Shown: positions 7,571 through 57,303, numbered from the whole stretch's first letter. The stretch is 61,254 nucleotides of DNA, filler included, from Sphacelaria rigidula (GCA_964200075.2; 8 parts of 8 records of this genome joined end to end with filler, not necessarily neighbours in it), one strand, 5' to 3'. The notes: generated from the letters alone by a model not told the origin. Numbers and translations are program-made.

Positions 7571-7670
7571 NNNNNNNNNNNNNNNNNNNNNNNNNNNNNN
7601 NNNNNNNNNNNNNNTTAATTAATTAANNNNNNNNNNNNNNNNNNNNNNNNNNNNNNNNNNNNNNNNNNNN
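7571..7670. other. Artificial contig spacer N44-TTAATTAATTAA-N44 (1 of 7)
   Basis: The identical 100-bp spacer also lies at 15241-15340, 22911-23010, 30580-30679, 38249-38348, 45918-46017 and 53587-53686. Confidence 0.99.
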
Positions 7671-15240: not shown

Positions 15241-15541
15241 NNNNNNNNNNNNNNNNNNNNNNNNNNNNNNNNNNNNNNNNNNNNTTAATTAATTAANNNN
15301 NNNNNNNNNNNNNNNNNNNNNNNNNNNNNNNNNNNNNNNNTTGCAGCCTCTGGACACAAGGCATTGCAGCCGTTGTCCTCTCGCCCGGCAAGCTACAAGC
15401 TACGAGCTACCACCTTTCCCCCGCATCATCTACCGTCAGTCGACATTGAAAATCTTGTCGAAGTACCTGTATCGGTTGTACGCTGTACAAACATTCTAGT
15501 CTCAGTCACATTTTCGAACACAACATGAAGAGTACCATGTA

Positions 15542-22910: not shown

Positions 22911-23540
22911 NNNNNNNNNNNNNNNNNNNNNNNNNNNNNNNNNNNNNNNNNNNNTTAATTAATTAANNNNNNNNNNNNNNNNNNNNNNNNNNNNNNNNNN
23001 NNNNNNNNNNATCAATAGCACCATCCTCAACATAGATGATTGGCTGTTTACAGCACTGCGCAGATACCGCAACGACTTCTTAATGTGAATGCAACAACAA
23101 CAACAACAACAACAAGTTGGTGCAAAACAAGGCGAAACCGTATGAGGTGTCTCAAAGTATGGTAAACACTTGTCCCTTTGAGAAACCAGGAAACTGGGCT
23201 TTTTTCATCCCTCAACATGGGCATACGCCCATGCACTACCGTGCTCATGACCGTGCTTTCGTCCAACATGTGTGTGCACAGTGCTCTGCAGGTCAAAGCG
23301 TCACCAGAAGGGAACGTGAGCGGAGCACAGCATTCGGATTGGGAGGGCGTTGTGGGGTGGAACTCGCATAGCAGTATCAGGGCGCCACGTCTCCAGCTAG
23401 AAAGTACACCCCGACAGCGTAGGGCTTCCCACGGGTCTTACACACGCGCGACCACTGTGCCGTCGTCGGCTTCTCACGAGGTCGGGTTCTGTGCGGTGTT
23501 TACCAAGGACGACTGTTTTTGTTTCTTCTTTTCTCGTGAC

Positions 23541-24254
23541 ATGCCTCGCTTGTGCTGCCACGTCGATTGTTCTACGCGAGCATCGTACGGTCGACCAGAC
23601 ACTCGAATGGCGGAGTTCTGTGTTCGCCACGCGAAGCGCGGTATGCTGGACGTTGTCAATAAGAAGTGCTACAGCGTGGGCTGCATGAAGTACCCATCGT
23701 ACGGACCAGCAGGGACCACTCAGCCGCTGTCCTGCATGGGGCACGCCAAACAAGGAATGGTCGCCGTTGCAAACAAACAAAGGAGGTGCTCATATACTGG
23801 ATGCACTAAGAGGCCATCGTACGGATTCAGGGGAACGAAAAAATCGCGATACTGCGTGCGGCATGCTGAGGACGGAATGGTGCACGTCGTGAGCAAGAAA
23901 TGTGTTCAAGATGGCTGTGACAAGCAGCCTTCCTTCGCTATCGCGGGAGAAACAACAGCAAGATTCTGCTCACAGCATGCCAGTGCTGATATGTTGAATG
24001 TTGCATATAGGAGGTGTGCTCGCAAGGGTTGCAGCAGGCGGCCGTCGCACGGTCGGCCAGGAAGCAGTGCGGCGAAATTTTGTAATGGCTGTGCTGATGA
24101 CTTCATGGTGGACTTGAGACAACCAAGAAGTGCCGGGGTCCGTCGTTTGGCGTCGCCCGCGTGTCCTCCGCCGGTGCAGGTTGACATTGTTCACTCGGGG
24201 TTTCAGCGGTCGCCGTGGGAGTTCAAACGCGTGCAGGCTCATCGTCTGGAGTAG
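23541..24254 (+). CDS. EsV-1-7 cysteine-rich repeat protein, 5 diverged repeats (237 aa from the first plausible ATG)
   Basis: Five C-x4-C..(P/A)S(Y/F/H)..C-x2-H..M..V repeats of 38-40 aa; the fifth has CxxC instead of CxxH. The frame is open from 23178, so the start is uncertain. Confidence 0.88.
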   Translation: MPRLCCHVDCSTRASYGRPDTRMAEFCVRHAKRGMLDVVNKKCYSVGCMKYPSYGPAGTTQPLSCMGHAKQGMVAVANKQRRCSYTGCTKRPSYGFRGTKKSRYCVRHAEDGMVHVVSKKCVQDGCDKQPSFAIAGETTARFCSQHASADMLNVAYRRCARKGCSRRPSHGRPGSSAAKFCNGCADDFMVDLRQPRSAGVRRLASPACPPPVQVDIVHSGFQRSPWEFKRVQAHRLE

Positions 24255-29179: not shown

Positions 29180-32100
29180 GGCGTGCGTTTGTTCCGGAGA
29201 CTACAGGTCTGTTCAGAGTTGGTCGGATACGAAAGTGAACCTGTATAATCACAGGGATGATGCGGGCTTTGTTCGCTGTAGCCACGAACAAACCCCCCCT
29301 CATGAGCACTATCAACTGCTCCCCTCTGCTAGCCAACAAAAGGAAGTCTAACCATCGGTGAGAGATATTGGCTGGTCTGGGTTGGATTGATTGAGTGGGT
29401 ATCGGAGTTGGAATCAAGATAATTAAGAGAGAAGTCAAGAACCTATTGCGTGAACCTCGGCTGATATTTGGATACTGAGCAGGTTACACGGTATCTACAA
29501 GTTGTAACAGCCTGACGGTTGTACACTTGCCTGCCAAGCTTGTGCCCTGGGTTGCAAGCTGTGTCCTTGCATTATACTGCCGCTTGCTCTTTATCACATT
29601 GGCGTCGACGGTAGGACTCTTTATTACGTTGGCGTTTGACTAAGGAACTTGCTCTTTTGCTATTGCGTTTCTTTCTTGTACCGAGTTTTACACCTGGCTG
29701 CCAGCTGTGTACTGCAGCTTTTGATCAGTTGCCCTTTTCCCTTCGGAGTTGTAGTCAAACCTACCGCAAGATAGTCAGTAGCTCTCGAGCTTCTGCCCCG
29801 TGTATTCCTCGGTAATGTGTATTCGTGCCCTGCTACTTGCAATTGCTGTAGCGTTCGACGCCACATCTTGTGTGGTCAACGTGGGATCAACGCGCACTGC
29901 TTGCTGTTCTTACCGTGCTGTCAATTTGATATCACCTGCACAAGTCCCAACGATATCAATCCCGCCTGCACGACTTTTGAATCTTTTTTTGATTCAACAG
30001 CACGGTGCGATCTCCCGCACCAAGCCATCGTTGGCTCGTGTATTTGGCCTTGTGGTCCCTTTCCTTCTGCAGAAAAAATCTTCTACTACAGGTTTGTACA
30101 GAACACCGATGCACAAAGGCGCACTGTTCTTCACAGCCAGCCGCTGTTCCCGACCCGAACTCCTGCCAAGCTGGCACGCTACTGCTCTTATTTTTCAGTA
30201 TCGATTGTACGCGATTGTTGTATCTTTCCTTCACGAAATTACTGAAGTAAGTACAGACCATGTCCACACAGTGTGATAACGGACGTCTGCACCGAACTTT
30301 GGATTGTTCCCGTACTTTACCTTCGTTGCTCGAGCGACCTTGTTGTTGTAGCTTTAGCTTTGTTGCTTGTGGCTAAGTTGTTCTAGTTGTCCTCTTGTGC
30401 ACTTCGCACAGCTGGAAGGCAACGCGATACATCACCGTGGTAAGTAGCAATACACAGCATACCGCATTGTGAGTTTTTTCTCCTTTGAAAACTTCTCGAA
30501 CGAACAACTTTATTGTTCCAGGACGGTTACTACTAGTTGAAACATTTCGACCTCCGTTACGTGCTCATTTGAACAGACANNNNNNNNNNNNNNNNNNNNN
30601 NNNNNNNNNNNNNNNNNNNNNNNTTAATTAATTAANNNNNNNNNNNNNNNNNNNNNNNNNNNNNNNNNNNNNNNNNNNNCCCCAAAAGGGGAGGAGGGTA
30701 TATCCCAAAAACTCAAAACACACCAAAAAAACAAACCCCCCCCCCCCCCCCCCCCCCCTTATCGTAGGATGACTCGTAAGTAGGATGGCAATTTTCGTGG
30801 GGGGAGCTTTGGTCATCATGACATCCGATGAAATCTCGCAAGTATTTATCAGAAAACATGGAATGGATTTGTTCTGTCGGTCAGTAGCTTTACACTGCAC
30901 TTCTTCGTACAGTGCGAGTTCTACCACAGCAAAGTCGAAGTCACCTGTCTGTCACAAATTCGATCCGTTATGCTAGTACAAGTAGTTACACTATACGATA
31001 ACAGTGCAGGGCCCCAGCATAATGCGGTCATACCGCGCGTACGACCCACCATATCTTGCTGGGGCCCCCACAGATCATATATCCCGTGCTTGCGATTAGC
31101 TTTTTCTAACCGTTGGGATGACTGAAAAACTGGCATCAAAGTAAGTATGGGTCGATAGTTCTAAAGCAGAGACACATCCGCATTACTTCTCGTAAATTCC
31201 ATTCTCATGCCAGAGTGCTCCCCCCCTCTCTGTGCTCCGTCTCGAAAGGGATGCGTGGTCAATGGTCAAACGACTATGGCAAGCAACAAATGAGTACGCC
31301 CCCCTCCCCCTTCCTTGTTTTGCGATGATTTGCACAAAGTACTCTCGCGGGCTTACTGTTACACATATATAGTCATAGCGAGCTCATCCACGCCGCGGAA
31401 ACCCACACACTGGTCGCAAAGATCCGTCCGGGTGGTTTACAGGAGTTTGTCTACACATGTGTGAAGAGTTCGCCACCGTGCACCAAACTTCACCGTTGTC
31501 TTCGAATCCATGACCAGCACAGTTAAAACGCGCCGGCCTCACATGCTACCCTGTCAAACACGATATATGTGGCATCGTGTGTGTAGGCTGATCGCTGCAG
31601 CTGATGAACACCAGCGACGGCCATGACACATCATAGAATAACACAGCAGGGCAGCTCATTCGTACCATTCCGATGATGGGCATCGGTTGCCTAAACATGT
31701 AGAACCCCTTGTGGAAACTATCATCAGAAATCATGCCGTTTCATGACAAACGCCCGAAAAAATCATCAACTCACTGGAAACGAACACCTCCCTGTGACGC
31801 CACGTGCCTGACGAAACGTTTTAAGAGTTCAAAATGTCGTCGCACGTACCATGTTCTGATGGTGCGTGTCGGAGTTGCTATGTCCCCCCAAGGTACTGTC
31901 CTTGCTGCACGACGTTCGCCGACGATCTCAGGACACTGCCCCTATACTTGTACAACGCTTGTACAACGAAGAACGCCCCGTAGGAAGAAGCTGCGTCAGA
32001 CCAATGTGGTGCACACCCGCGATCCATCAACCAGCGGTGAACACCTACTAGGCATTCTTCCGCCTACATATATTACCTAACCTAGATAACAACGGTGGTT

Positions 32101-34080
32101 AGAGTCTACAGAACCCTCTGTCTAGGTTCTGTTTCGGTTCTGACCTCCACCACGGCGGTATGTCCTTCAATACTTTGTGGGAAAAGACGAATCTTCAACC
32201 AGAGGGCGTAGTCATTGTACAACTGCAACATCGTTGGAATTTCAACATAGGCCGTAGGGTGATGCTAATAGCACGAAATCACCTGGGAATGTTTCTGTCC
32301 AGGAGTTTCAGGCCTTGCCACAGCTCTTTTGATCGAACCCATACTCGAGTTGGGTTAGCCTTACAATGGATCGAAGCTCTCATAGCTTTATCTCGTCGAC
32401 ATACCCGAATTGAGCCGTGATTCGCACATCTTATTATTACCCAATATAGGGGAAGGTGTTTAGGTGCAGAAAAGATCTGGGCCGATCATTTCTCGTTAAT
32501 TACGAGTAAACCGTAGTTCGCGCGGAGATAGGGTCCATACCGAGGTTTACACAAAACCCCGACTGATACGTGGAGCGGGCGATGATGATGCTTTATGCGA
32601 ACATCCCCTGGAGCACGGGCAAACGATTAGTTCTCTCACTTCTAAATACCTGCAGGTACCGCATTTTGTTCAAGCCGTGTTTATTTTTTAGAGGCAATTC
32701 TCGAAACCTCAGAGCCAAGCGAATATGAAAAGTGGTCTAAACTCCGTTGGTGGGGCACTGCAAAATGCCCAAGATGTGTGGAGGCGATATTCCCTGTTTT
32801 GTTGAGAGGTCAAAACTTGTGTCAACGGTCCACGAATAAAGATTACGACCCCCCAAAAAAACGAGCCGTAAGAAACGATCTTGCTCAGTTTTTCAGTTCA
32901 GCCCAGGTGATTGATTAAGTCATTGAAATATACTGTGGAGACTCGCAAGTGCATACCACAAAAAAAACAAAAGAAACCCGGGCCTTCATTTTCGACGGTG
33001 GGTTGAGGACGTGCTCGTGACAAACTGGCCCATACTACGCTGAAGTGTCTTCACCTCATGTAACAAAACCAAACTCGCTGTCCCCCTGTTTTTTGTTTTT
33101 TGCCGCAGCGAATCTCCACACAAACGTTCGAGGCACAAGTACCAAAACTGGGCTGGTAAACGACCTTTTATATTCTGTGCCAATTCTCGAGCGACCCGGG
33201 CTGTGAATCTGGCACTCTCATCTCAGTTACTAGAGTTGGACTTCCCAAATTTGACATTTACAATCGTGGGGGCACAAAAAAAACGCACTTGCGGGACAGC
33301 AATTTGAGGTTCATGATTTAGCCCCGTTTTAGTGAAACATGGATATTGTTTTTCGCCCAGGAGTCATGGAAGGAACAGCATTCTCAATGTCTCGAAACTT
33401 CTACTGCATGTTTATGTGATGCCGTAGCGGTTTCCTATGATTGATTTCAAAGTGCGCTTTCGAGTACAACATCGCTCTCATCTTTCTCCCAAGCCGAGAT
33501 ACCGTGCGTGCATTTTTGCTGGCGCTGTTAAAAAGCAAAGCTGCTGCGCCCACCCCCTCGCGCCCGTTCAAGTATGTACCCGAGTAGATTGCTCGTATGA
33601 TGCTGCATAGCGATCGCTCACCCTTTCGATTATTATTTCTGGCTCTTGATCGTGCACAACGTTTTTGATCTGACTGGTCCTGTGTGACCTGTAAGCCCTA
33701 CGTTTGTTACTTTGAAATATATCAATCTGCCATTTCTCTCTGATACGACATCCTTTAGCATCGGTGTTGTGCTTTACATCCACCCATGATGGTCCTTCGT
33801 TTTGTCCCACACTGGTGCTTGATCCGCTTCCGATCCCTACTGTAATAGCGTAGAGGGCGTCGGATTCGCTGAGTTTATCTTGCAAGTTGGCGTCAGCTTA
33901 CATGAAGCGTCTTCTGAGCTGAATGCAGGCCGACGCTTCTTCTCCGGAGTATATCCAGCAATAACAATGTCATTCGTTCTGCAAAGCTTTTGAACAGCGC
34001 ACGGAGTATTTTCCGCCGTCTTCGTATTTGCGCTATACTGTAAGCAGGGCGTTTTCGAAGGAGCGCCACCGAAGGAGCTG

Positions 34081-36423
34081 ATGACCGACATTTCTAGAAG
34101 AAGGTACATCAACAAGTACGCCAGGGGGGGAATGGTGGATGTGGTGAACGAGTGCGGCTACGAGGGCTGCTCCACGCTGCCGACGTATAGTGTAGCAGGA
34201 AACACCAGGGCAGCGTTCTGTTCCAAGCATGCCAGGGCGGGAATAGTGAAGGTGGGGAAAATGATGTGCGGCTTCGAGGGTTGTCCCACGTTTGCGTCGT
34301 ATGGTGTGGGGGCAGGCGAAGATGCAAAGTTATGTTCCAAGCACGCCAGAGTGGGAATGGTGAATGTGGTGAAGAAGGAGTGCGGCTACGACGACTGTCC
34401 CTCGCTATCGCTGTATGGTGTGGCGGGGAGCAAGAAGGCGGAGTTCTGTTCCAAGCATGCCAGGCCGGAAATGGTGAATGTGGCAACCAAGATGTGCGGC
34501 TACGAGGGCTGCTGCAAGGTGCCATCGTATGGTGCGGCGGGAAGCAAAAAGGCGGAGTTTTGCTCGGAGCATGCCAGGGCGGGAATGGTGAATGTAAAGT
34601 ACAAATTGTGCAGTGACGACGGCTGCTGCAGGGTGCCGTCGTATGGTGTGGCGGGAAGCAAGAACGCGGAGTTTTGTTCCAAGCATGCCAGGGCGGGAAT
34701 GGTGAATGTGGTGAACAAGAAGTGCGGCTACGACGGCTGCTGCAAGGTGTCGTCGCATGGTGCGGCGGGAACCAAGAGGGCGGAGTTTTGCTCGAAACAT
34801 GCCAGAGTGGGAATGGTGAATGTGGTAAAGAGGAAGTGCGACTACGAGGGCTGCTGCAGGATACCGTCGTATGGTGTGGCGGGAACCAAGAAGGCGGAGT
34901 TTTGTTCGAAGCATGCCAGGGCGGGAATGGTGAATGCGGTGAACGGGAGCTGCGGCTACGACGGCTGTCCCACGCGTCCGTCTTATGGTATGGCGGGGAG
35001 CAATAAGGCGGAATTCTGTTCGAAGCATGCCAGGGCAGGAATGGTGAATGTGGTGAACAAGATGTGCGGCTACGAGAGCTGCTTCACTCTGCCGTCGTAT
35101 GGTGCGGCGGAAAGCAAGAAGCCGGAGTTCTGTTCCAAGCATGCCAGGGCGGGAATGGTGAATGTGGTGCAGAAGATATGCGGCTACGACGGCTGTCCCA
35201 CGCGTCCGTCGTATGGTGTGGTGGGGAGCAGGAAGGCAGAGTTCTGTTCCAAGCATGCTAGAGCGGGAATGGTGAATGTGGTGAACAAGATGTGCAGCTA
35301 CAAGGGCTGTCCGACGCAACCGTCGTATGGCATGGCGGGAAGCAAGAAGGCGGAGTTTTGTTCCAAGCATGCCAGGCCGGGAATGGTGAATGTGAAGCAC
35401 AAAATGTGCGGTGACGACGGCTGCTGCAGGATGTCGTCGTATGGTGTGGTGGGGAGCAGGAAGGCAGAGTTCTGTTCCAAGCACGCCAGGGCGGGAATGG
35501 TGAACGTGATGAACAAGATATGCCGCTACAAGGGCTATCCGACGCAACCGTCGCATGGTGCGGCGGGAAGCAAGAAGGCGGAGTTTTGTTCCAAGCATGC
35601 CAGGCCGGGAATGGTAAATGTGACATACAAAATGTGCGGTGACGACGGCTGCTGCAGGATGTCGTCGTATGGTGTGGCGGGAAGCAATGAGGCGAAGTTC
35701 TTCTCCAGTCATGCCAGGGCGGGAATGGTGAATGTGGTAGGTCAGAGGTACGGCAAGAAGAGGTGTTCCCAAGCACCTCTCAACAAGAAGGATAGCGTTG
35801 ATGCCGAAACGCTTTGCCAACAGCATGCTAGTGCACACAACACAGCTGCCGTTTTTGACACCACGAAGCTCAACCCTGGTAAGGGCACCCCTGGCCGTAG
35901 CGCGACGGAGGGTGATGGAGGAAGCGTTGCTAATATACGAGGAGTGAAGCGCAAGCGCGCAGCACTCTCGGGTTCTGGTGCAAACGACGGCGTACGTGCT
36001 CGCCATAGTGTGTGCGCCAGTTCCGGGCTGGTGGAGAGGACACCGTCGCTCTCGGGACGTCCACGTTTGCTCCTGGAACACCCAACTTCGAGGGCTGATG
36101 ATGAGGTGTCTCTGCGGGCAGTAGCAAGAGCAGGAATGAAGGTAGAGCTAGCAGTCCCTTCTCCTGCACACGGTGGCGATGGGACGAGGATGTTTCATAA
36201 GCAGGCTTCTCCTTCAAGTGGTTGGAGCAGCGAACGTGGGAGTAGTGGAGTCATCGGGAGTGATGATAGTGGTACGGGGTGGGCTTGTGGTCTGCTGGCA
36301 ACGGTACCTGGATGCCTGGGCACATTTGATGATGAGACGGTTGGAAAGGTAGATGAGGCTTTAAACGTGAAGTTGGAGCTAGGAGTCTCGAGTCCTATTC
36401 GTGGGACGTCCAGTACACGGTAG
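34081..36423 (+). CDS. EsV-1-7 repeat protein, 780 aa, with 14 tandem 38-aa C-C-C-H repeats and a low-complexity C-terminal tail
   Basis: Uninterrupted ORF. Consensus repeat CGYDGCxxxPSYGxAGSKKAEFCSKHARAGMVNVxxKx. The tail carries VKRKR, MKVE and VKLE. An in-frame acceptor (CAG|34048) could add an upstream exon. Confidence 0.93.
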   Translation: MTDISRRRYINKYARGGMVDVVNECGYEGCSTLPTYSVAGNTRAAFCSKHARAGIVKVGKMMCGFEGCPTFASYGVGAGEDAKLCSKHARVGMVNVVKKECGYDDCPSLSLYGVAGSKKAEFCSKHARPEMVNVATKMCGYEGCCKVPSYGAAGSKKAEFCSEHARAGMVNVKYKLCSDDGCCRVPSYGVAGSKNAEFCSKHARAGMVNVVNKKCGYDGCCKVSSHGAAGTKRAEFCSKHARVGMVNVVKRKCDYEGCCRIPSYGVAGTKKAEFCSKHARAGMVNAVNGSCGYDGCPTRPSYGMAGSNKAEFCSKHARAGMVNVVNKMCGYESCFTLPSYGAAESKKPEFCSKHARAGMVNVVQKICGYDGCPTRPSYGVVGSRKAEFCSKHARAGMVNVVNKMCSYKGCPTQPSYGMAGSKKAEFCSKHARPGMVNVKHKMCGDDGCCRMSSYGVVGSRKAEFCSKHARAGMVNVMNKICRYKGYPTQPSHGAAGSKKAEFCSKHARPGMVNVTYKMCGDDGCCRMSSYGVAGSNEAKFFSSHARAGMVNVVGQRYGKKRCSQAPLNKKDSVDAETLCQQHASAHNTAAVFDTTKLNPGKGTPGRSATEGDGGSVANIRGVKRKRAALSGSGANDGVRARHSVCASSGLVERTPSLSGRPRLLLEHPTSRADDEVSLRAVARAGMKVELAVPSPAHGGDGTRMFHKQASPSSGWSSERGSSGVIGSDDSGTGWACGLLATVPGCLGTFDDETVGKVDEALNVKLELGVSSPIRGTSSTR
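34153..35748 (+). repeat. Coding tandem array, 14 x 114 bp without indels
   Basis: First Cys codon at 34153. Position 34153+14x114=35749 is the start of a decayed 15th unit (YGKKRC..LCQQH). Confidence 0.97.
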
Positions 36424-36870
36424 ATGTTACCATTCCTTGCACCGTTCTCGTTGCTCAGATGGTCCAGGTAGTGAGTGTTGGCATGTGCTCACGTATGGTG
36501 TCAGCGGTCTGAAACGATCATTAGTCGTCACAGTGTCTTCTCTTCCACAACGCGGAGCAGTTCTTGATTTCGACGGGGTCCTGATATATCAGGGTTTTTC
36601 CAGATCGAGAGTCTAGCGTTTGATCGCGAGTAAGAACACAAGAAACAGGGATTCCAAATATTTTGTCTGACTGGCGCTTGTTGGGGAATACTTATCCGAG
36701 TCAGCCCAGGATAGGTTCGAATGAGAGCGCTTCGTCATGGGTTTTGGCTTCGTCAACATGTGTATTTTGAACTCTCGGGAGTCCCAGAAATGGTATATTC
36801 ATGTCTGAAATGGTTTCGGTTCTAACATGCCCGTCTAGGCTTCATACAACAGTGCTTTCGTGAGATGGAG

Positions 36871-37272
36871 AGTAGAGGGTACGATGAAAAGAGGGAAGCC
36901 GTCAATAAATGAAGGGCAATGGCCTAGAAAGTGTATACCTTCTCGTTTTTCGCCGAGAAGAGGTACGAAAAATGGCCAGGAACGCGAAGACAACCAAACA
37001 CGCCATTTTGACCTTTTTCGCTCCGGAATTTTCACGCACATAGTTCGGGGGGGCCATTGGCACCCGGGACTCGAAAACAAACGGATAAAATACATGTTAC
37101 TCGAGATATATGACCACGCGAAATCGGACATTTCGCCTCCAGAAACCGCGTACCTTTTGTAGGCCACATTTCGCTGATGTATACCTGATGCTAGGAATTA
37201 TTTTTAAATCGTACCTTATTTGGGCCACCGATCGGCCAAGAACGTACCTCTGCTAGGCCATCGCTCTCTACA
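36871..37272. repeat. MITE-like segment with a repeated GTACCT..(T)AGGCCA subterminal motif
   Basis: The motif occurs at ~37150, 37181, 37210 and 37243, with inverted versions at ~36920-36980. Weak GTAGAG/CTCTAC ends. Confidence 0.35.
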
Positions 37273-39627
37273 CTGTGCCAGAGAATCTACGCGCCAACTC
37301 CAACCATGGCGCCCACACATTCGACTTTTTTCCCGCTCATTTGTCGTTCACGGTCGCCACCACGACCACGCCCCTTTCTTCCCGGAAACCGTTCCCGAGT
37401 CTCTCCGCATCGACAAAATAACTCGACTTATAACTCACAACGCGTCGGTCTTTTGTGATACTCTACCGGGGTTTGTGAAACACCTTACTGTTCCGATCTC
37501 GGGGCTGGTGTCACGCGGTGAAGCTAGGCTCTTCCGTTACGAACGGGTGGTTGTCACATCATCGATGGTTGGTTCAAGCAACGGATACAGTACTGGCGAT
37601 CAGGCATATACTGTAGGAACAGGATGATAACTCTCATGGACGTACGTCGCTGAACGCACGCACACCCCGCCGAGCCCGCGTGAATCGTCCTTGGTAGTAC
37701 TTCAAACTGCTCCATTAACCCGAACATGATGACACCCATCTTCTTCCCTCCTTCTCCGCTATCACCATAATATAGTAGCAGTTGGGCCGCCCAAGACGCT
37801 CACTTTCTATCAGCTTGTTCGAACTGACGATGTATCGCGAGTTGTGCCAGCACAGATAACCAGCGTTGGCCTACAAATGTCCATCGTTGATATTACTTGA
37901 TTAGAGTGTGCACAACGAGACTCGGATTTCAAGTACGGCTGACGGTCCCTGTGCGCAGGTTTCGTCGAAACCGACGCCACAGGAGCTGATTTGGGGTCTG
38001 CAAAGGCCACACTTTGCCAAGGGAATGTTATGTGCCGCCCTTGTCCAAAGGTTCCGGTTCACGATGGGTTGGGGTTAGGGTTTTGCGGGTAGGGGTAGGG
38101 GTTGCGATACTTGTAAAATGTGTCGACCATGAACAGTCAACAGTCGATCCTAATTTTTGGGGTTGAACTATAAAATGCGGTTCAACCCGCAAATCGCTTC
38201 CGTTGGGAAAATACAAAACAGTAACACAAAAGGAAGGTATTTTCCCCCNNNNNNNNNNNNNNNNNNNNNNNNNNNNNNNNNNNNNNNNNNNNTTAATTAA
38301 TTAANNNNNNNNNNNNNNNNNNNNNNNNNNNNNNNNNNNNNNNNNNNNTTTTCTCTTCTATTTTTTTTTTTGGGGTTGGGTTATGGGTTGTTGGTTTTTT
38401 TTTTTGTTTGGGTTCCCGGCGGGGGGGGGGGGGGGGGGGGGGGGGTCGTACTCATTTGTTGCTTGCCTTAGTCGTTCGACCATTGAGGGGGTATCTTCGG
38501 ATGTGCACAAAGCTAGATATGCCACAGATTACTGAAAATCTCCATCTCGATGGCGAAATGCAACATTCTGCTATTCGTACATGCTTCGAACACTACTGGA
38601 AAATGCATAACCCCTCCAGCGCTCAGCATATCCCTAATCAGAGACGAGGGGCTGGCAATCTGAGGATTTGGAAAACGAGCTGTTGTTGCTGTCGCTGTTA
38701 ATCATCACAGTAGCCATTTTCCGGGAATCAAGCGCCCGTAGACACGAAGCTGTGGCAGAAAAAGGCAGAACATGAGGGGAAAAAATTATATGCTCACGAA
38801 CACGAAAAATCACTGCGCCGGGCAGGATGGGGTTTTACGAACACGCCAGCCAAGAATAACAATTGACGCAACACTATTCGCGCGGCTTGAAATAACGAAC
38901 GGACAAAAAAATCGTCGGTGACATAGTACGCGGGCCAGAAGAGGCCAAATAGGGGAACTAAGCAAGTCGGCGGAACGAACAGGTCAGGCCAGGACAAGGC
39001 AAGTCAATGCAAGGTCAGGCAAGACGAGACCCGACAAGAGCCAAAGGACAGTAGGATCGAATTACAGGCCAGCAAAAATGAGATATAACAACATACAATA
39101 ATCACGGCAAGCTGCAGGCGTAGGTGTAGATGCCCCACAGGCGGACATGGGGGATAAATACGGTTTTTCATATAAGATAAGCATAGTGCACATACATCAC
39201 TGTAGTGCAAACAATGGTTGCGGGGGGCAGGTACGAGGTGCCCTGTAGTTCAAGATACAAATGCTTGTAGTCCTGGAAATGCATGAGGGTTGCATCAACG
39301 ATAGCTCTTTCATTCTTAGTCGAACATTGCTCCTCTATGCTGGAGCAGTCGATCAAATCCGGCCGTTTGATCAACACTGGCTTCGTGTGGGAAACAGTCT
39401 CCTTCCTTAGCGCAGGCTTTGCTGCTGCCCATCCAATCCCCTTAGATGATATTTAACGATACCGAAAAACGACGGTGTGTGATACAGACTACACATGACC
39501 GAGGACCCAATACGGTCGATAGAGACAACACCCAGGTGTGGTCATGATACGAGTGCGTCGCGATCACGACAGGAATAATCAAGGTCATCCAGGGGACGTG
39601 TTCAAATCCCCCAGGTGTTTCACTCAC

Positions 39628-44015: not shown

Positions 44016-44185
44016 TGCAGTGTTCGTTGAGGGCAAGCTTCAATCTACTGTACATCATCGGTTCAAGCTTCCACGGCACAACACAGCCCACGCTTGTGTA
44101 TGCAGTGTTCGTTGAGGGCAAGCTTCAATCTACTGTACATCATCGGTTCAAGCTTCCACGGCACAACACAGCCCACGCTTGTGTA
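44016..44185. repeat. Perfect tandem duplication, 2 x 85 bp
   Basis: TGCAGTGTTCGTTGAGGG...CACGCTTGTGTA at 44016 and 44101. Confidence 0.95.
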
Positions 44186-45100: not shown

Positions 45101-46263
45101 ATTTCCACGGACGACACTGTTACGGATGTGGGATAACTTATACTTCGAAGGATAAAAAATTTATTCTGGATAAGCATTTCGCCGATACGGTTTTAAAACC
45201 CTGCTGTGAATCATGCAAACCGGACAGACAGGAGTGGTCGAGCTCGCTGACTATCGACCGCGAAAAGGGTTGTGAGTTGTGGGCGACCGGGCGTAACGCT
45301 TTCAGTTTTCAGGCTTCAGGAGTGGTGGAACAAGAAAGAGGACGTGGCATAACCATAGGAGCCGAGGGTGAAAGGGAGCGCCTTCGTGTGTGTGTTACAA
45401 AAGTCATCATCCCGCGAAAAAATAACATGAGTACACCGCCATGGTATATAATATGAACGGGTCGTTATTCTTCACTGTTGAGTTGTTTTCACCGGCAATG
45501 TTTCGAGGTTTCTCACTACAGCTGTTGATACCATTCTTGAGGGACGCATTCCAGGCCTTTTCTCGTGGTGGAGAACCTTAGTCCTGGGTCGGGCGCTGCT
45601 GCTGTTGCGCGTCTGCTGCCCCGCTCCCCGTCACCCTGTGCTGTAGAAGGGGTGATACTCAAGTATAATATTAATATTCGATATTCTTGGTTCTGGTTTG
45701 TTTTTCTCTACGGACGCGACGTTATATGTGTGTGTGTGTTGTCTTCCCATCTATTTGGGACGCCGGTCTACACCTTTGGGTATATGTGGCCGCGCCAGCA
45801 GGGGTCACACAGGAGAAAGGTCAAGGCAGGAGTTTCTTCTTGGGTAGACGTCACAGTAGGGTATACCATGGTGCATTAGCGACAAACCTGGGTACCCTCT
45901 TTGTTCGGAGGAGAAATNNNNNNNNNNNNNNNNNNNNNNNNNNNNNNNNNNNNNNNNNNNNTTAATTAATTAANNNNNNNNNNNNNNNNNNNNNNNNNNN
46001 NNNNNNNNNNNNNNNNNAACGCAGAGTACGAAGACGCTGAAACAAATTCTAAGATCACAGAAAAAAAAAAAACGGTGTCGATAATAATGGGCTTACGGGG
46101 GGGCGACTCTCCCCGACGGTTTTTTTTTTCAGTGTAAGTCGGGTGCAGATCTTGGGTCGTACCCCCGTGGAGCTAGTCGGGGTAATTCAGACGCCAGCCT
46201 TCCGACCGACAGTCGAGCTGATTCGAACTAAAACTTTACACTCGGGAAGGAGATGATTCGTAG

Positions 46264-53003: not shown

Positions 53004-53416
53004 CTGGGCTGCGTGTACCTGGGTTGCCACACTGAAAACAAACCCTAGGGATTGATTCGTACGATTCGAACCAACCACACTAAAACCAAGTTATTTCCAG
53101 ATTTGTCCGACCCTTGTTATGATTACACCCGCGGGATCGTGACTGATTTGAGGAGGCACATGAGGATCAAAATTCAAAAAGCCAGGTACACCCAATAGCC
53201 GGGAACTCCCTGGGCTGCGTGTACCTGGGTTGCCACACTGAAAACAAACCCTAGGGATTGATTCGTACGGTTCGAACCAACCACACTAAAACCAAGTTAT
53301 TTCCAGATTTGTCCGACCCTTGATATGATTACACCCGCGGGATCGTGACTGATTTGAGGAGGCACATGAGGATCAAAATTAAAAAAAGCCAGGTACACCC
53401 AATAGCCGGGAACTCC
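53004..53416. repeat. Near-perfect tandem duplication, 2 x ~206 bp
   Basis: CTGGGCTGCGTGTACCTGGG...CCGGGAACTCC at 53004 and 53210 with only a few substitutions. Confidence 0.93.
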
Positions 53417-54713
53417 CACGCTTGACATCGTTTTCGCGATTGTCGACCATGTACGGCGCTTCACACAGTCTGGCACCAGCTATCGTGCACTGCATAGTCA
53501 ATTTATTCGTGACAGGCTTGAGGCTGCTCTGGGGGGGGGGGGGGGGGGGAGTGCGCGGGAACAATTTGCCTTTCTCATGAACACCCNNNNNNNNNNNNNN
53601 NNNNNNNNNNNNNNNNNNNNNNNNNNNNNNTTAATTAATTAANNNNNNNNNNNNNNNNNNNNNNNNNNNNNNNNNNNNNNNNNNNNCTCGCCAATCCTGC
53701 CTGGCCCGGCAAAAACCCGGCGTTCTCCGCCCCGGCTTCGTCAGGGCGGACCCCCTATGAGCTTTGCGTCGGTTGGTCATGACGCTGTGAAACTCGCCGT
53801 TCACTGCGTACACTAGGCAACCAGGTCGCCGATTTGTTTCGCGCGCTTGTATTTTTTTTTTCGGCAGTCATGGTGGTAGTCGAGCTGGATCATATTGCAC
53901 GGGGTGGGCGAACGTCAACTCCGCGCAAAGGGTATGATCGTACTACGTTGTGTGTAAATGTTGAGACACCCATGAGGTGGTGTGAAAGCTTGACTGTCTC
54001 TGGAAGTGGCAACACCAGAAAATGAAGCAGCTCATTGTAGACTGTCATCCAAATGCAAAATAATCAGTAGGCTTCGAGCCGACAATCTCAAAAGGATGCA
54101 GCTCACCCTTAATGCGACTCGCTAAACACACCACGGGGCTGCGCGCTTGATGATTGATTGCCAGCCTGGTCGGGCGGAAACCCGGCGTGCTCCGTCCTGG
54201 CGTTGTAGGGATGCGAGGTCAACGGTTATACGAAAATGGTGTGCAGGATGATGACTACACACCCCACCCCACCCCACGCATTCCATTATTACCATCAAAT
54301 CTGCACGCTCTTAGCCCGTCGATCCCCCACCCCCACCCGCCTGCTCCCGCCCCCGCCCAACGAAAATTGTCACGTTTTCCGACGCGGGTACACCAGACGA
54401 GAGACTCGACTCTCGGGATTCAACCCTACGAAACCTACGCCTATATCTAGTGTTGATGCACCAGTTTGAGCACTAGGGCGCGGCGGGTTTAGCATGGTGT
54501 ATTGATACGCTCAAGCGGGAGCTTCGTTGTGCGCTGTATCCGCCTTAGCGTGCACACAAACTTGCATCAAGTTCTACCTCTTATTATCCACTACTTTTCT
54601 GTCGCCTATCCATCCAATCTCCGCTGCCACTCCACTATCGTCAATTTCGATCCGCACAGTCCGAGCTTGCTGCCAGTGGTACCTCTGCTGGATCATCATC
54701 GTCACCCGTCGTC

Positions 54714-57268
54714 ATGGCCGCCGCTGCTGCTGCGGAGCCTGCAACCGGAAACGGCAACATTGCCCAGAAATCTCCAAACGGACGTAGCATGGCTGACTCT
54801 CCGATATCCAGGGTTCGGGCCGACGTCGCATGGGCATCAGATCGGCTCACGCGAAGCGTCTCGCCAGTGGTAACGGAGGCGGAAGCGGAGATGGAGACTA
54901 GCGATGCTATCCCGACGGGTTCGAGCAATTGCAGGCCTGCTATGGATGAGCTCAAGACTAGCCCTGTCTCTCCCTCGGCAGCAAGTACCCATAGGAGAAA
55001 GAGGGGGGGGCATGATGGCGGAGTGGGGATGGTAATAGGGATTGCTCCCGTTGGCGCTAGGTCGAGAGGTAGTCCCGACGCCGAGGTGGGCACAGAAGAA
55101 AGGGGACAATCGGGGACGGAAGGCAGTGGGACGGCAGTAGCGGATGTTGGGCGGGAGACGGCGAAAGACACGGGATCGTCCGACTCACAGGCGACAAAAA
55201 GCAGAAGACAGCGACGCATTGAGGTTTCGAAGGCTGGTACTACGATGACCTCTGGCAGCGGAGCGTTTGATCATAAACATAATTCTGCGAAGGATTCGGG
55301 TACCGCAGCTTGCAAACAGGGCGATACCTTGAGCGGGGAAAGTGATAAGGGCGGTAACGGCGGTGCTATGAGCGAGACAGCAAGCCTGAGCAATGAACGT
55401 GCCGAAGCACGTTCTGGAGATCTGAATTATGTGTGTCTCCCCCAGCCTCTTGTGCTGTCGGGCTTCACGAAGGATTCAGCTGCGGGCGATGGTGTGCCGC
55501 TCGGAGGAGCAGCATCGGCTCATCCGGCGGCAGCAGCAGCCGAGGATGAGCTTGTCGAGGATGATAGTCGCCAAAAACTTACAAGGATAGAGGCAGCGAT
55601 GGAGAAACTGATGGCCGTGTTTGAGGAGGCAGATATCGTGCTGAGAGCCAGTAAACTGCAGGCCGTGTTTCAGGACGTGGATGCCGTGCTTCGCAGTGAT
55701 CCTTCACTGTCTTGGTCGTCTGTGTTATTGGATCCTGCGGCGATATCGGCGAATTGTGCAACCCTCGTTGCAGAGTGGAAGAAGTCCGCGGCGGGTCTTG
55801 GGAAGGGTGGTCATGCTGGCAAAGATGGAAGGAGAGTGATGAAAACGGTAGAGGGTGACAACCGCGACAGGGTGGTACTGCAGAGAGGTACGAAGAAGCA
55901 GTCATCGGTTTCCGCGTGCGAGGGACAGCAACAGCACAGCAAGAAGAGCAAAAAGAGACCGCGCCCCAGTGACAACACAACCACCACCAGCAGCAACACA
56001 ACGGCGGGTGGTAAGTCTCCGAACGATCGCCCGGCGCCCACGCACCCACATCTGTCTCCGCCAACCCCGCGGAGCCCGTCGCACTCCTCTCCAACCACCA
56101 AGCCGCCCATATCTGCGTCGAAAAAGAAAAAAAGGACCGAAGCACCGGGGACGGTGAGAAGAAAGGCATGCGGAACACCGCGCGGGACCGCGCCCGGCGG
56201 CGATGCGACGCAACGACTACGGAAGGGAAGGAAGGCCGGACAGGGGGCAGGATCCGGTAGGGCGGCGTTGGGCACGGAGGCAGCGGGTGCGGTGGCCAGG
56301 GTGCGATCACTGTGGCAGGAAACACCTTCCCGTGGCGACGTGGTCACTAGGGACACGGTGTTTGATCTTCCCTTGGAACCAGATGGTGATGATGACGATG
56401 ATACCGTGGGCATAGGCGAGGGTGTTCAGTTGTCGGTGCTGGCTTCTCCTGATGCTTTTGGAGGTAGTGTTGTTGGTGGTGGCGGAAGCGCTGGTGCAAG
56501 TGAGTACGGCGGGGTGCACGTTGGTAGCAGCAGCCCACCACCAAAAAAACGCAAGAGGAATAAGGAAGGAGAAGGGGATCCTGATAGGTATGTCCCTGGG
56601 CACAGTAAAGGGAAAGGAAAAGCACGGAGCAAGGATCAAAACAGAACAGATGGATCAAAGGAGAAATACGCGGGGCAGAAGTTAACGGGCGAAGCGAAGG
56701 GTGATGATCCACAACAGGGTAGAAAGCAAAAGGGAGAGGGCGCTGAGTCAAAGTCGGCAGTAAAGGCGAAGGGTGGCAAGAAGATGTTGGGCAGGGATGG
56801 GAAGGGTGATACTCGAGCACCGGGGAAGCGGAACGGAGGCGCTAGCGCAGAGGAGGTGAAGAGGAGGAAGACAGTTGACGACGTTGACGGTACTGCCGCA
56901 GCTACCGCGACCGCTACTACTGCTGCTGCTACTGCTTATGCTTGCACACCAGCGAAGCAGAAAGGGGGAGACACGAACGCCGAGGGCGTGAAGAAAAATA
57001 TGAGCACTGGTAGTGATGTCTACGGTGCCGCCGCTGCTGCTGCTGATAATTCGACGCCGGCGAAGCGGAAATCAGCAGAAACTAGCACCGGAAAGACGAA
57101 GAGAGTTAGCGGTGCCAACAGTGTTGCCGCCGTTCCCGCTATCGCTACTGCTGCCTATACTTTGACACATGCGACGCGAAAAGGGCAAGGCGATAGCACC
57201 GCGAAGGCAAAGAAAAAAAAGGGGGTCAGTGGTTTCGAGAAGTGTGCGGCTACTACTGCCACTGCCAC

Positions 57269-57303
<35 letters not shown>

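What the first reader, a model, noticed from the sequence alone, without database searches (positions are those of the whole stretch)
34153..35748. EsV-1-7 array built like a programmable reader: constant C-C-C-H scaffold with two fixed hypervariable windows
Seen: 14 indel-free 38-aa repeats with a nearly invariant framework (SYG, AEFCSKHARAGMVNV). Positions 7-9 read STL, PTF, PSL, CKV, CRV, CKV, CRI, PTR, FTL, PTR, PTQ, CRM, PTQ, CRM. Positions 35-38 read GKMM, VKKE, ATKM, KYKL, VNKK, VKRK, VNGS, VNKM, VQKI, VNKM, KHKM, MNKI, TYKM, VGQR. Position 9 and position 36 each take seven different residues, including typical base-contacting ones (R, Q, N, H, K, Y, T). Known: EsV-1-7 repeats are named after an Ectocarpus virus protein, are expanded in brown algae (including the IMM gene) and are proposed to be zinc-finger-like; I know of no established ligand or code. 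TALE and PRDM9 arrays have the same constant-scaffold, variable-residue layout. Inference: this may be an undescribed modular DNA/RNA-recognition system with a repeat code, possibly directed at viruses or transposons.
Basis: partly seen in the sequence, partly recalled or inferred. Interest (0 to 1): 0.9.

Follow-up and report, generated by a model that had tools for sequence, protein, structure and literature searches.

The report
Brown-alga EsV-1-7 zinc-repeat array gene
An intact gene of brown-alga type encodes fourteen 38-residue cysteine-histidine repeats of the known EsV-1-7 family; its variable residues probably line a DNA-binding surface, but nothing found here shows a TALE-like code or an arms race.

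Summary
Window 34153-35748 (+) holds 14 indel-free 38-aa C-x4-C-x16-C-x2-H units inside one 780-aa ORF (34081-36423), and variability peaks at positions 9, 36, 38 and 35.

It is a member of a described family: Pfam PF19114 EsV_1_7_cys, 14 stretches, E 3e-198. The closest relatives are Sphacelaria rigidula proteins. That family is already hypothesised in print to be zinc-finger transcription factors.

The TALE/PRDM9 analogy fails on evolution:
- Units are 69-91% identical in DNA, with framework dS 0.41.
- Within the array, dN/dS in the windows is about 1.0 pooled and 0.79 in independent pairs.
- Between collinear viral arrays it is 0.61, the same as at other variable positions (0.63).

The windows are basic and acid-depleted. 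They flank one zinc knuckle.

New here: in giant-virus contigs the same kind of array sits in front of a conserved ~187-aa, nuclease-like domain (6700 representative clusters). In some representatives classical C2H2 arrays, Bro-N or PriCT-2 take the array's place. This argues that EsV-1-7 arrays bind DNA. The window's gene lacks that domain and instead has a tail with a KRKR run and two psi-K-x-E motifs.

A repeat code remains untested.

The parts
34081..36423 (+). Single open reading frame of 780 aa (stop included): the EsV-1-7 domain gene
   Evidence: the ORF listing; Pfam PF19114, E 3.3e-198, 14 stretches. pI 9.3, net charge +53. The true start and any upstream exon were not established.
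34081..34152 (+). N-terminal 24 aa holding a decayed second half of a unit (..YINKYARGGMVDVVNE, like p22-38 with C23 and H26 lost)
   Evidence: Translation; weak partial match of the repeat HMM at 34096-34152, model positions 24-36.
34153..35748 (+). Array of 14 units of 114 nt / 38 aa, C-x4-C-x16-C-x2-H; net charge +45
   Evidence: Units are 69-91% identical in DNA.
35521..35634 (+). Unit 13, which has lost ligand C6 (Y)
35635..35748 (+). Unit 14, which has lost ligand C23 (F)
35749..35862 (+). Degenerate 15th unit (Y-x4-C-x16-C-x2-H, framework decayed); aligns with the start of the paralogues' tails
   Evidence: Read from the translation and the tail alignment.
35863..36420 (+). Low-complexity C-terminal tail shared with Sphacelaria paralogues (70% identity to P0001, 40-51% to five others)
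   Evidence: Local BLASTP, alignment, motif census. No Pfam family found.
35947..35958 (+). KRKR basic run (R-x-x-KRKRA), K/R-RKRA in all 7 aligned tails; NLS-like. That reading is recalled knowledge and was not tested.
36136..36147 (+). MKVE, a psi-K-x-E motif; K-V-E is invariant in 7 of 7 aligned tails. It resembles the SUMO-acceptor consensus (recalled, not tested).
36367..36378 (+). VKLE, a second psi-K-x-E/D-like motif near the C-terminus; present as V/M-K-L/I-E/D/K in 6 of the 7 aligned tails (P0004 ends before it)
23178..24254 (+). Second EsV-1-7 gene fragment/ORF 10 kb upstream on the same strand; 5 units at 23553-24116, 44-50% identical to the array's units. Gives a tandem gene cluster.
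   Evidence: Pfam PF19114, E 1.1e-60, 5 stretches; HMM hits; identities.

Best explanation
The locus is an ordinary but unusually long member of the brown-algal EsV-1-7 domain family.

Shown:
- One intact 780-aa frame holds 14 CCCH units of fixed 38-aa period, plus a decayed half unit before them and a degenerate unit after.
- The scaffold is kept by purifying selection. The units are old duplicates.
- The variable positions form one basic, acid-depleted zone around the first Cys-x4-Cys knuckle.
- A subfamily-specific tail carries an invariant KRKR run and psi-K-x-E motifs.

Inferred:
- Each unit binds one zinc through C1, C6, C23 and H26.
- The units hang together like beads on a string.
- The protein is nuclear.
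- The array binds DNA, with the knuckle-flanking residues and the conserved lysines/arginines (p8, p18, p19, p37) forming the contact surface. Different units would prefer different sequences, as in C2H2 zinc-finger arrays rather than as in TALEs.

The inference of DNA binding rests mainly on giant-virus relatives. There the same array type is the N-terminal module of proteins ending in a conserved ~187-aa domain with a Vsr/DUF559/Hjc-like motif set. In some members classical C2H2 arrays, Bro-N or PriCT-2 replace the array. The window's gene has the array without that domain, as expected of a host regulator built from, or sharing ancestry with, such a targeting module.
For: Family membership:
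- PF19114, 641.6 bits, 14 stretches.
- 157 homologues at E<=1e-5. The best are Sphacelaria rigidula proteins, at most 65% identical.
- In BFVD, 29 giant-virus structural matches at E<=0.001, including EsV-1-7 itself (TMq 0.77).

Selection:
- Framework dN/dS is 0.20 with dS 0.41; the windows give 1.02.
- In 7 edge-disjoint unit pairs the windows give pN/pS 0.79.
- In 15 independent collinear viral pairs (79 units) the windows give 0.61, other variable positions 0.63 and the framework 0.19.

Charge:
- The array carries +45.
- Across 557 family units the mean is +2.8 and 87% are positive.
- D/E makes up 1-8% at p7-9 and p35-38, against 14-38% at p2-4, 15, 17, 21, 25, 29 and 33.
- In this array 1 of 98 window residues is acidic, against 34 of 434 elsewhere (binomial 0.003).

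Structure: AF2 models of 4 units (pLDDT 83.6, pTM 0.45) and of 1 unit (pLDDT 80.2) show small strand-only modules.

Tail motifs are conserved in 7 of 7 aligned paralogues.

Viral architecture:
- 78 of 78 ORFs scanned from the pattern hits are PF19114.
- 57 of 65 complete ORFs carry a C-terminal extension of at least 120 aa after the array, median 187 aa.
- That domain has 17 invariant columns in 47 sequences.
- It is found in 6700 representative clusters at E<=0.001.
- Among the best 149, 107 have EsV-1-7 units. Four have C2H2-type fingers (P0326: zf-H2C2_2, 121.6 bits). One has Bro-N and one PriCT_2.

Print: a Tc1/mariner transposase of Ectocarpus has an N-terminal EsV-1-7 domain (passage of PMC12477816). 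The family is hypothesised to be zinc-finger transcription factors (passage of PMC12629598).
Against: - No binding was measured, and zinc binding is inferred from the motif only.
- No solved structure or known DNA-binding fold matches the model: PDB by sequence and by profile gave nothing; Foldseek against PDB gave nothing at E<=0.001; VIA best Z was 2.4-2.7, to RING domains.
- In this array p9 and p38 are mostly hydrophobic (10 and 9 of 14).
- Units 13 and 14 each lack a ligand.
- The argument from viral architecture is guilt by association, and the window's gene itself lacks the C-terminal domain.
- The nuclease identity of that domain rests only on sub-threshold hits: Pfam MTES_1575 in 2, Hjc in 2 and DUF559 in 1 of 47; Atlas scores 0.81-0.86; hhalign to E. 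coli Vsr aligns 17 columns at probability 2.4%.
- The NLS and SUMO readings of the tail motifs are recalled consensus patterns.
Confidence: 0.6

Rival explanations
1. The array is a programmable nucleic-acid reader with a simple residue-to-base code, one unit per fixed number of bases. The code would be set by positions 7-9 and 35-38, and the array would be diversifying against viruses or transposons like PRDM9 or TALE arrays.
For: - The 38-aa spacing is strict: 316 of 357 adjacent spacings in homologues and 358 of 362 in viral arrays.
- p9 and p36 recur among the most variable positions and use few residue types in viral arrays: p9 R/Q/I/T and p36 S/H/N/D.
- Close viral relatives differ by whole units, with gaps of 37-39 aa.
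- The arrays sit where C2H2 arrays sit in front of a nuclease-like domain.
Against: - There is no DNA-level homogenisation: units are 69-91% identical and framework dS is 0.41.
- There is no excess of non-synonymous change at the windows: 1.02 pooled, 0.79 in independent pairs, 0.61 between collinear viral arrays. No window position exceeds 1 there (p9 0.83, p36 0.63).
- Between putative orthologues the windows change about as often as other variable positions (0.39 against 0.37; only p33 is unusually conserved).
- In close paralogues p7-8 are constant within a gene.
- No viral or transposon gene was seen beside the locus in the ORFs scanned.
Confidence: 0.15
2. The array is a protein-binding, or other non-nucleic-acid, scaffold, like LIM, RING or B-box zinc modules or the repeat families of giant viruses. 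The variable surface would recognise proteins.
For: - The only structural neighbours, all weak, are protein-binding zinc modules: RING at Z 2.4-2.7, with B-box and LIM in the Foldseek tail.
- Hypervariable surface positions on a constant scaffold are typical of any repeat protein.
- A preprint groups EsV-1-7 with FNIP repeats as expanded virus-linked families (passage).
Against: - Positive charge is strong and family-wide, and the variable zone excludes acidic residues.
- Viral relatives place the array in the position of C2H2 fingers or Bro-N.
- A transposase fusion is in print.
Confidence: 0.15
3. The array binds RNA rather than DNA.
For: Charge and modularity fit RNA as well. CCCH ligand sets occur in RNA-binding fingers (recalled).
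Against: The partners that replace or accompany the array in viral proteins are DNA-linked: C2H2 arrays, Bro-N, PriCT_2 and a Vsr/Hjc-like motif set. There is also a transposase fusion. The spacing differs from the CCCH RNA-binding type, and Pfam gave no such hit.
Confidence: 0.07
4. The gene is decaying and the variable positions are simply drift in a dying repeat.
For: Units 13 and 14 each lost a ligand. The N-terminal half unit and the 15th unit are decayed. Within-array dN/dS at the windows is about 1.
Against: The frame is open for 780 aa. Framework dN/dS is 0.20 with dS 0.41. The tail motifs are conserved across 7 paralogues.
Confidence: 0.03

Closest known systems
EsV-1-7 domain proteins of brown algae (Pfam PF19114; includes the Ectocarpus developmental regulator IMMEDIATE UPRIGHT)
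   Same: - Same motif and 38-aa period, and a Pfam match far above threshold.
- The nearest relatives are brown-algal proteins.
- The genes are clustered in tandem, as described for the family (a second gene lies 10 kb away; passage of 10.1101/2024.02.19.579948).
- No other Pfam domain is present, as reported for Ectocarpus members (passage).
   Different: - With 14 units it has more than any of the 120 homologues of similar length; they have at most 11 canonical units.
- Six units carry a Cys-Cys doublet at p6-7, where Cys rounds to 0% in 557 family units.
- Its tail was found only in Sphacelaria relatives.
- It is not an IMM orthologue by any test done here; IMM's own N-terminal domain was not compared.
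Giant-virus proteins with an EsV-1-7 array followed by a conserved ~187-aa C-terminal domain (IMG/VR contigs; BFVD entries, some named 'Endonuclease' by their source)
   Same: Same repeat family (78 of 78 ORFs PF19114), the same period, and similar variable positions. Structural matches at E down to 2e-18.
   Different: The window's gene, its neighbour and all six frames of the window lack the C-terminal domain. So do all the proteins that a source names as brown-algal, about 80 by my count by eye from the listings.
C2H2 zinc-finger arrays (for example KRAB-ZNF type)
   Same: - Tandem zinc modules of fixed period.
- Old, diverged units kept by purifying selection, with variable surface residues.
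- Large, clustered, lineage-specific gene families.
- C2H2 arrays occupy the same place as EsV-1-7 arrays before the viral C-terminal domain (P0326 and others).
   Different: - The ligand set is C-x4-C-x16-C-x2-H in 38 aa.
- There is no C2H2 Pfam hit.
- AF2 predicts short strands and no recognition helix.
- The linker is variable rather than conserved.
TALE repeats and PRDM9 zinc-finger arrays
   Same: Constant scaffold with a few variable positions per unit, and indel-free units.
   Different: - There is no near-identity of units at the DNA level (69-91%; framework dS 0.41).
- No positive selection was found at the variable positions.
- TALE repeats are helical and zinc-free (recalled).
Domesticated homing-endonuclease-derived regulators (for example the phage-satellite case of PMC8096241; search listing and start of abstract only)
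   Same: Precedent for a host or mobile element keeping the DNA-targeting part of a selfish nuclease as a gene regulator.
   Different: The direction of descent between viral array-plus-domain proteins and algal array-only proteins was not tested here. The nuclease activity of the viral domain is not shown.

Membership tests
EsV-1-7 cysteine-rich repeat family (Pfam PF19114) | Match to the family HMM above its gathering score | tested here: met
   641.6 bits against a cut-off of 25; 14 stretches.
EsV-1-7 cysteine-rich repeat family (Pfam PF19114) | C-x4-C-x16-C-x2-H ligand pattern in tandem units | tested here: met
   12 of 14 units are complete. Unit 13 lacks C6 and unit 14 lacks C23. The same pattern gives 557 units in 116 of 120 homologues.
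EsV-1-7 cysteine-rich repeat family (Pfam PF19114) | Zinc coordination by the four ligands | not testable with these tools
   Inferred from the motif. AF2 ran without metal.
EsV-1-7 cysteine-rich repeat family (Pfam PF19114) | Brown-algal or giant-virus distribution, with genes in tandem clusters | tested here: met
   The best hits are Sphacelaria, Ectocarpus, Pylaiella and Ascophyllum proteins. There are giant-virus structural matches. A second family gene lies 10 kb away.
TALE/PRDM9-type rapidly diversifying reader arrays | Units nearly identical in DNA, with differences concentrated in the specificity codons | tested here: not met
   Pairwise unit identity is 69-91% and framework dS is 0.41.
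TALE/PRDM9-type rapidly diversifying reader arrays | Positive selection (dN/dS above 1) at the variable positions | tested here: not met
   1.02 pooled over 91 pairs (sites chosen after the fact), 0.79 in 7 independent pairs, and 0.61 between 15 collinear viral pairs. Orthologues of this very gene were not available.
TALE/PRDM9-type rapidly diversifying reader arrays | Demonstrated one-unit-to-n-bases recognition | not testable with these tools
   No binding data exist. Neither search for 'EsV-1-7' and its spelling or accession variants turned up a paper whose passages I read that reports a ligand.
C2H2 zinc fingers | Pfam zf-C2H2 match and a beta-beta-alpha unit | tested here: not met
   No C2H2 family at E<=0.01. 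DSSP of the models shows strands at p12-14 and p31-33 and no helix of 4 or more residues.
WRKY19-type zinc finger (Pfam PF24906) | Match to the family HMM | tested here: not met
   No hit for the window's protein. Some homologues reach the whole-protein score only by summed partial matches to the Cx4C knuckle. One viral protein (L058) has a full-length PF24906 stretch beside EsV-1-7 units.
Giant-virus 'array plus conserved C-terminal domain' proteins | The ~187-aa domain with invariant RPD / E-x-D-E-x-x-H / R / R-x-N-P-D columns after the array | tested here: not met
   An HMM of 56 viral domains finds it in 69 of 242 proteins. It does not find it in the window's gene, the neighbouring gene or any frame of the window.
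PD-(D/E)XK nucleases of Vsr/DUF559/Hjc type (for the viral C-terminal domain, not the window's gene) | Significant sequence or fold match to a nuclease family | tested here: inconclusive
   All evidence is sub-threshold. Pfam finds MTES_1575 in 2, Hjc in 2 and DUF559 in 1 of 47. P0278 hits Hjc at 19.6 bits against a cut-off of 21.1. NCBIfam finds Hjc in 2 of 47. Atlas look-alikes score 0.81-0.86. hhalign to E. coli Vsr aligns 17 columns at probability 2.4%. The PDB profile search gave nothing.

The most novel reading that the evidence does not exclude
EsV-1-7 arrays are a further natural class of modular DNA readers. In giant viruses they would aim a Vsr/DUF559-like nuclease, making natural 'finger-nucleases' interchangeable with C2H2-array versions. 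In brown algae they would have been kept without the nuclease as the largest lineage-specific family of nuclear regulators. A few knuckle-flanking residues per unit (p9, p36, with p11/p35/p38) would set the base preference, so that targets could be predicted and arrays re-designed.
Probability: 0.2. Interest if true: 0.9.

Novelty: new member of a known kind. Interest (0 to 1): 0.5.

Why it matters
EsV-1-7 genes form the largest orthogroup across brown-algal genomes and include a developmental regulator (passages). Their biochemical function is unknown.

This locus is an ordinary member of that family. Following it up turned up a concrete, testable argument that the repeat is a DNA-targeting module. 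In thousands of giant-virus and metagenome protein clusters the array is the N-terminal partner of one conserved nuclease-like domain. In some of those proteins C2H2 fingers, Bro-N or PriCT-2 take the array's place.

If that holds, three things follow:
- Brown algae would have a large, private family of DNA-binding regulators.
- Giant viruses would carry a large reservoir of natural array-guided nucleases.
- The pairing of array and target could be read from viral genomes, which is the quickest route to finding out whether a code exists.

Tried and rejected
- **Whole genome:** none is held for the window, so genome-wide repeat statistics were not possible.
- **Macaisne et al. 2017:** not held. 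I know it only through citing passages.
- **Expression:** no RNA holder listed. The four runs laid are contigs; three are only guessed to be RNA, and none spans the array. I draw nothing on expression from them.
- **Fold searches with the 4-unit and 1-unit models:** Foldseek against PDB gave nothing at E<=0.001. VIA-wide best Z was 2.4 and 2.7, to RING domains.
- **PDB by sequence and by profile:** nothing.
- **ESM Atlas for the array:** no usable hit.
- **Earlier findings of the scan:** none.
- **Ancestral states:** I made no reconstruction and used edge-disjoint unit pairs instead.
  - A tree without the seven window codons does not keep the C-type and P-type unit groups together (supports 25-87). 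So I cannot say how many independent changes made them.
- **Mutual information between variable positions:**
  - It is weak in the homologue set (z up to 2.7 over 24 tests).
  - It is high in viral arrays (z up to 6.8). There it is confounded by units shared through descent, so I reject it as evidence of coupling.
- **Search for the tail beyond Sphacelaria:** only P0001 at database-wide E<=0.001.
- **The search for related loci:** alignment A1 was not conserved enough. With A3, 22 pattern matches but no relative. A degenerate DNA pattern then worked.
- **Viral C-terminal domain:**
  - PDB profile: nothing.
  - PHROGs: nothing with a name.
  - Phage tblastn: nothing.
  - The viral records are not held for the genome search.
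  - hhalign to a single Vsr sequence was not significant.
- **Literature:**
  - 'EsV-1-7' with 'endonuclease' gives one paper, and the two terms are unrelated in it.
  - 'Nucleocytoviricota' with 'DUF559' gives none.
- **Supplementary tables** of the brown-alga genome papers (lists of EsV-1-7 genes) were not opened. bioRxiv supplements are closed. They may hold this gene's model and repeat counts.
Full report
**1. What is there**

Window 34081-36423 (+) is one open frame of 780 aa. From 34153 to 35748 it reads as 14 units of exactly 38 aa with no indel. Tandem Repeats Finder sees the same array: period 114, 14.3 copies, 77% matches.

The four putative ligands are C1 (14 of 14), C6 (13 of 14), C23 (13 of 14) and H26 (14 of 14). 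Before the array lie 24 residues that include a decayed second half of a unit. After it comes a degenerate 15th unit (Y-x4-C-x16-C-x2-H), then a 186-aa low-complexity tail.

Column entropy peaks at p9 (2.70 bits), p36 (2.50), p38 (2.41) and p35 (1.95). The seven window positions average 2.04 bits against 0.68 for the other 31.

Two refinements apply. Positions 17-19 and 2-4 also vary. And the two windows are neighbours in the chain: p35-38, then C1-x4-C6 of the next unit, then p7-9. They form one variable zone around the first zinc knuckle.

**2. What it is**

Pfam places the protein in PF19114 (EsV-1-7 cysteine-rich motif) with 14 stretches, E 3.3e-198. There is no other real family; a Phe_ZIP score has no stretch of its own.

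Of 157 homologues of similar length at E<=1e-5, the best are proteins that NCBI names as Sphacelaria rigidula (at most 65% identity). Ectocarpus, Pylaiella, Ascophyllum, Scytosiphon and many unnamed metagenome proteins follow. A search among shorter proteins adds more: by my count from the two listings, 39 hits are named Sphacelaria rigidula. The collection's own gene call for this window covers only residues 549-780 (P0121).

A second EsV-1-7 ORF with 5 units lies 10 kb upstream on the same strand. That fits the tandem clustering described for the family (passage of 10.1101/2024.02.19.579948).

From passages only, the literature says this:
- The family is massively expanded in brown algae: 2018 proteins in 31 genomes, and the largest orthogroup.
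- It includes the regulator IMMEDIATE UPRIGHT.
- It occurs in giant viruses.
[quoted passage not shown] The founding paper (Macaisne et al. 2017) is not held.

**3. Is the variability more than drift?**

Within the array, units are 69-91% identical in DNA. Nei-Gojobori counts pooled over all 91 unit pairs give these values:

| Positions | dN/dS |
|---|---|
| Framework (dS 0.41) | 0.20 |
| The seven window codons | 1.02 |
| p7-9 | 1.56 |
| p35-38 | 0.68 |

The window sites were chosen because they vary in protein, which biases these values upward.

Ancestral states were not available. I therefore used seven edge-disjoint unit pairs taken from the maximum-likelihood tree. The windows give pN/pS 0.79 (10 synonymous and 32 non-synonymous differences) and the rest 0.51.

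So the units are old duplicates held by purifying selection on the scaffold. The windows are weakly constrained, and there is no sign of positive selection. This differs from TALE or PRDM9 arrays, where units are nearly identical in DNA apart from the specificity codons (recalled).

**4. The family at large**

In 557 canonical units from 116 of 120 homologues, the spacing is exactly 38 aa in 316 of 357 adjacent pairs. In the 68 arrays with five or more units, the most variable within-array positions are p9 (1.81), p36 (1.77), p35 (1.75), p38 (1.55) and p4 (1.54). The Spearman correlation with this array is 0.69.

The contrast with other non-scaffold positions is modest, however: many sit at 1.4-1.5 bits. 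In the closest paralogues p7-8 are nearly constant within a gene.

Charge is the clearer signal:
- Units carry +2.8 on average and 87% are net positive.
- Acidic residues make up 1-8% at p7-9 and p35-38, against 14-38% at p2-4, 15, 17, 21, 25, 29 and 33.
- In this array 1 of 98 window residues is acidic, against 34 of 434 elsewhere (binomial 0.003). The array's net charge is +45.

The variable zone is thus free to change but not free to become acidic. That is what a surface facing a polyanion would show.

**5. Orthologue-type comparisons**

Eleven groups of full-length, collinear homologues (at least 55% identity over at least 80% of the length; 47 units) were compared. Window positions differ between group members about as often as other variable positions (0.39 against 0.37). 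Only p33 is clearly more conserved than its among-unit variability predicts, and p9 is borderline.

With DNA from giant-virus contigs I repeated this at codon level, on 15 independent collinear pairs (79 units).

| Positions | pN/pS, all 15 pairs | pN/pS, 9 pairs at >=79% identity |
|---|---|---|
| Windows (p7-9, p35-38) | 0.61 | 0.47 |
| Other variable positions | 0.63 | 0.36 |
| Framework | 0.19 | 0.12 |

Here p9 gives 0.83 and p36 gives 0.63. The only values above 1 are at p18, p11 and p4, on small counts.

The outcome is no positive selection, together with moderate constraint. These groups may include paralogues. Orthologues of the window's own gene were not available.

**6. Structure**

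AlphaFold2 gave two models:
- Four units: mean pLDDT 83.6, pTM 0.45.
- One unit with its preceding linker: mean pLDDT 80.2, pTM 0.59. The leading ten residues (p29-38 of the preceding unit) average pLDDT 51.

Each unit has short strands at p12-14 and p31-33 and a bridge at p22. There is no helix of four or more residues. The low pTM of the 4-unit model suggests that the units are not held in a fixed mutual orientation.

No solved structure resembles the models.

**7. The lead from giant viruses**

Against predicted viral structures, the 4-unit model has 29 matches at E<=0.001, all from giant viruses. They include EsV-1-7 itself (TMq 0.77, 42% identity). Four entries are named 'Endonuclease' by their source and one 'DNA primase'.

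I scanned 78 ORFs from the first 80 loci, and all 78 are PF19114. The only real second Pfam domain was one WRKY19-type finger, in L058.

Of 65 complete ORFs, 57 carry a C-terminal extension of at least 120 aa after the array. Across the 65, the array starts at about residue 4 (median 3 residues before it) and the median extension is 187 aa.

That extension is one conserved domain. In 47 sequences it has 17 invariant columns, including four cysteines, R-P-D, E-x-D-E-x-x-H, an arginine and R-x-N-P-D. A profile of it finds 6700 representative clusters at E<=0.001 among 1.84 billion proteins.

Among the best 149 representatives:
- 86 have EsV-1-7 units by an HMM of the window's own units.
- 21 more have them by Pfam.
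- 4 have C2H2-type fingers instead. P0326 has a whole C2H2 array (zf-H2C2_2, 121.6 bits).
- 1 has Bro-N.
- 1 has PriCT_2.

The domain is absent from the window's gene, its neighbour, all six frames of the window, and every hit that a source names as brown-algal.

What the domain does is not settled. The hints point to Vsr/DUF559/Hjc-type nucleases, but all are below threshold.

**8. Reading**

The same array type, C2H2 arrays, Bro-N and PriCT-2 all serve as the N-terminal partner of one conserved C-terminal domain. This is the strongest evidence available here that EsV-1-7 arrays are DNA-targeting modules. It agrees with the transposase fusion reported in Ectocarpus (passage of PMC12477816).

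The window's protein keeps the array and replaces the viral domain with a tail. Across seven paralogues that tail conserves R-x-x-KRKRA, psi-K-V-E and a terminal V-K-L-E. These look like a nuclear import signal and SUMO-acceptor sites, but that reading is recalled and untested.

I therefore read the gene as a nuclear, DNA-binding regulator of the EsV-1-7 family (confidence about 0.6). The full 'programmable code, arms race' reading I put at about 0.15. A protein-binding scaffold I also put at about 0.15.

**9. Novelty**

The gene is a new member of a known family, and the zinc-finger transcription-factor idea is already in print.

I did not find two things in the held library: a proposal of a per-unit recognition code, and the link between EsV-1-7 arrays and a conserved nuclease-like domain shared with C2H2 arrays. 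The searches were:
- 'EsV-1-7' and its spelling or accession variants.
- 'EsV-1-7' with 'endonuclease'.
- 'Nucleocytoviricota' with 'DUF559'.

Supplementary tables of the genome papers were not seen.

Noticed in passing
window 7571-7670, 15241-15340, 22911-23010, 30580-30679, 38249-38348, 45918-46017, 53587-53686: Pairs of 44-N runs separated by 12 bases recur every ~7670 bases. The piece between two pairs (30680-38248) is 7569 bases, the same as the 'contig length' recorded for the collection's own gene call P0121. This looks like an artefact of how the record was cut or masked, not biology.
   Followed up: partly
window 23178-24254 (+): Second EsV-1-7 ORF with 5 units, one spaced by 40 aa, 10 kb upstream on the same strand. 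Its start codon is unclear (translation).
   Followed up: partly
window 34495-34950, 35407-35520, 35635-35748: Six units (4-7, 12, 14) read C-C-[KR]-[VIM] at p6-9. A cysteine at p7 rounds to 0% in 557 homologue units and is not among the four commonest residues at p7 in 520 viral units. It could be a spare ligand. Unexplained.
   Followed up: partly
window 34405-36081 (-): A 558-aa antisense open frame runs through the array. It is most simply a by-product of the repeated codon pattern. No family search was run on it.
   Followed up: no
window 36775-37500: In the best DNA-like run, summed contig depth rises from about 65-75 to 5,000-570,000 here. So a very high-copy dispersed repeat lies 0.4-1 kb downstream of the stop codon. 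Rfam finds nothing at 33000-38200.
   Followed up: partly
window 54714-59276 (+): A 1520-aa open frame, rich in simple repeats (periods of 3, 6, 18, 24 and 48 bases), with no Pfam family above threshold.
   Followed up: no
window 12889-13341 (+): An ORF fragment matches the kinesin motor domain (PF00225, E 1.3e-8). It is probably one exon of an ordinary host gene.
   Followed up: no
window 44016-44185 and 53004-53417: Two exact or near-exact two-copy tandem duplications: 85 bases at 100% and 206 bases at 98%.
   Followed up: no
L001-L119 (IMG/VR contigs); proteins P0241-P0389: A ~187-aa domain with no Pfam model (copy of 2025) is present in 6700 representative clusters. It starts with a C-x4-C-x11/12-C-x2-C knuckle; weak zf-A20 hits occur in 9 of 47. 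About 30 of the best 149 carriers have N-terminal regions of 100-400 aa with no Pfam family at all.
   Followed up: partly
Proteins P0001-P0005, P0007 and others named Sphacelaria rigidula: The annotated paralogues begin M-V-N-V-x-x-K-x-C, that is, at the methionine of p31 of a unit. The collection's call for this window also starts at such a methionine, in unit 14. Some of these gene models may be cut short at the N-terminus.
   Followed up: no
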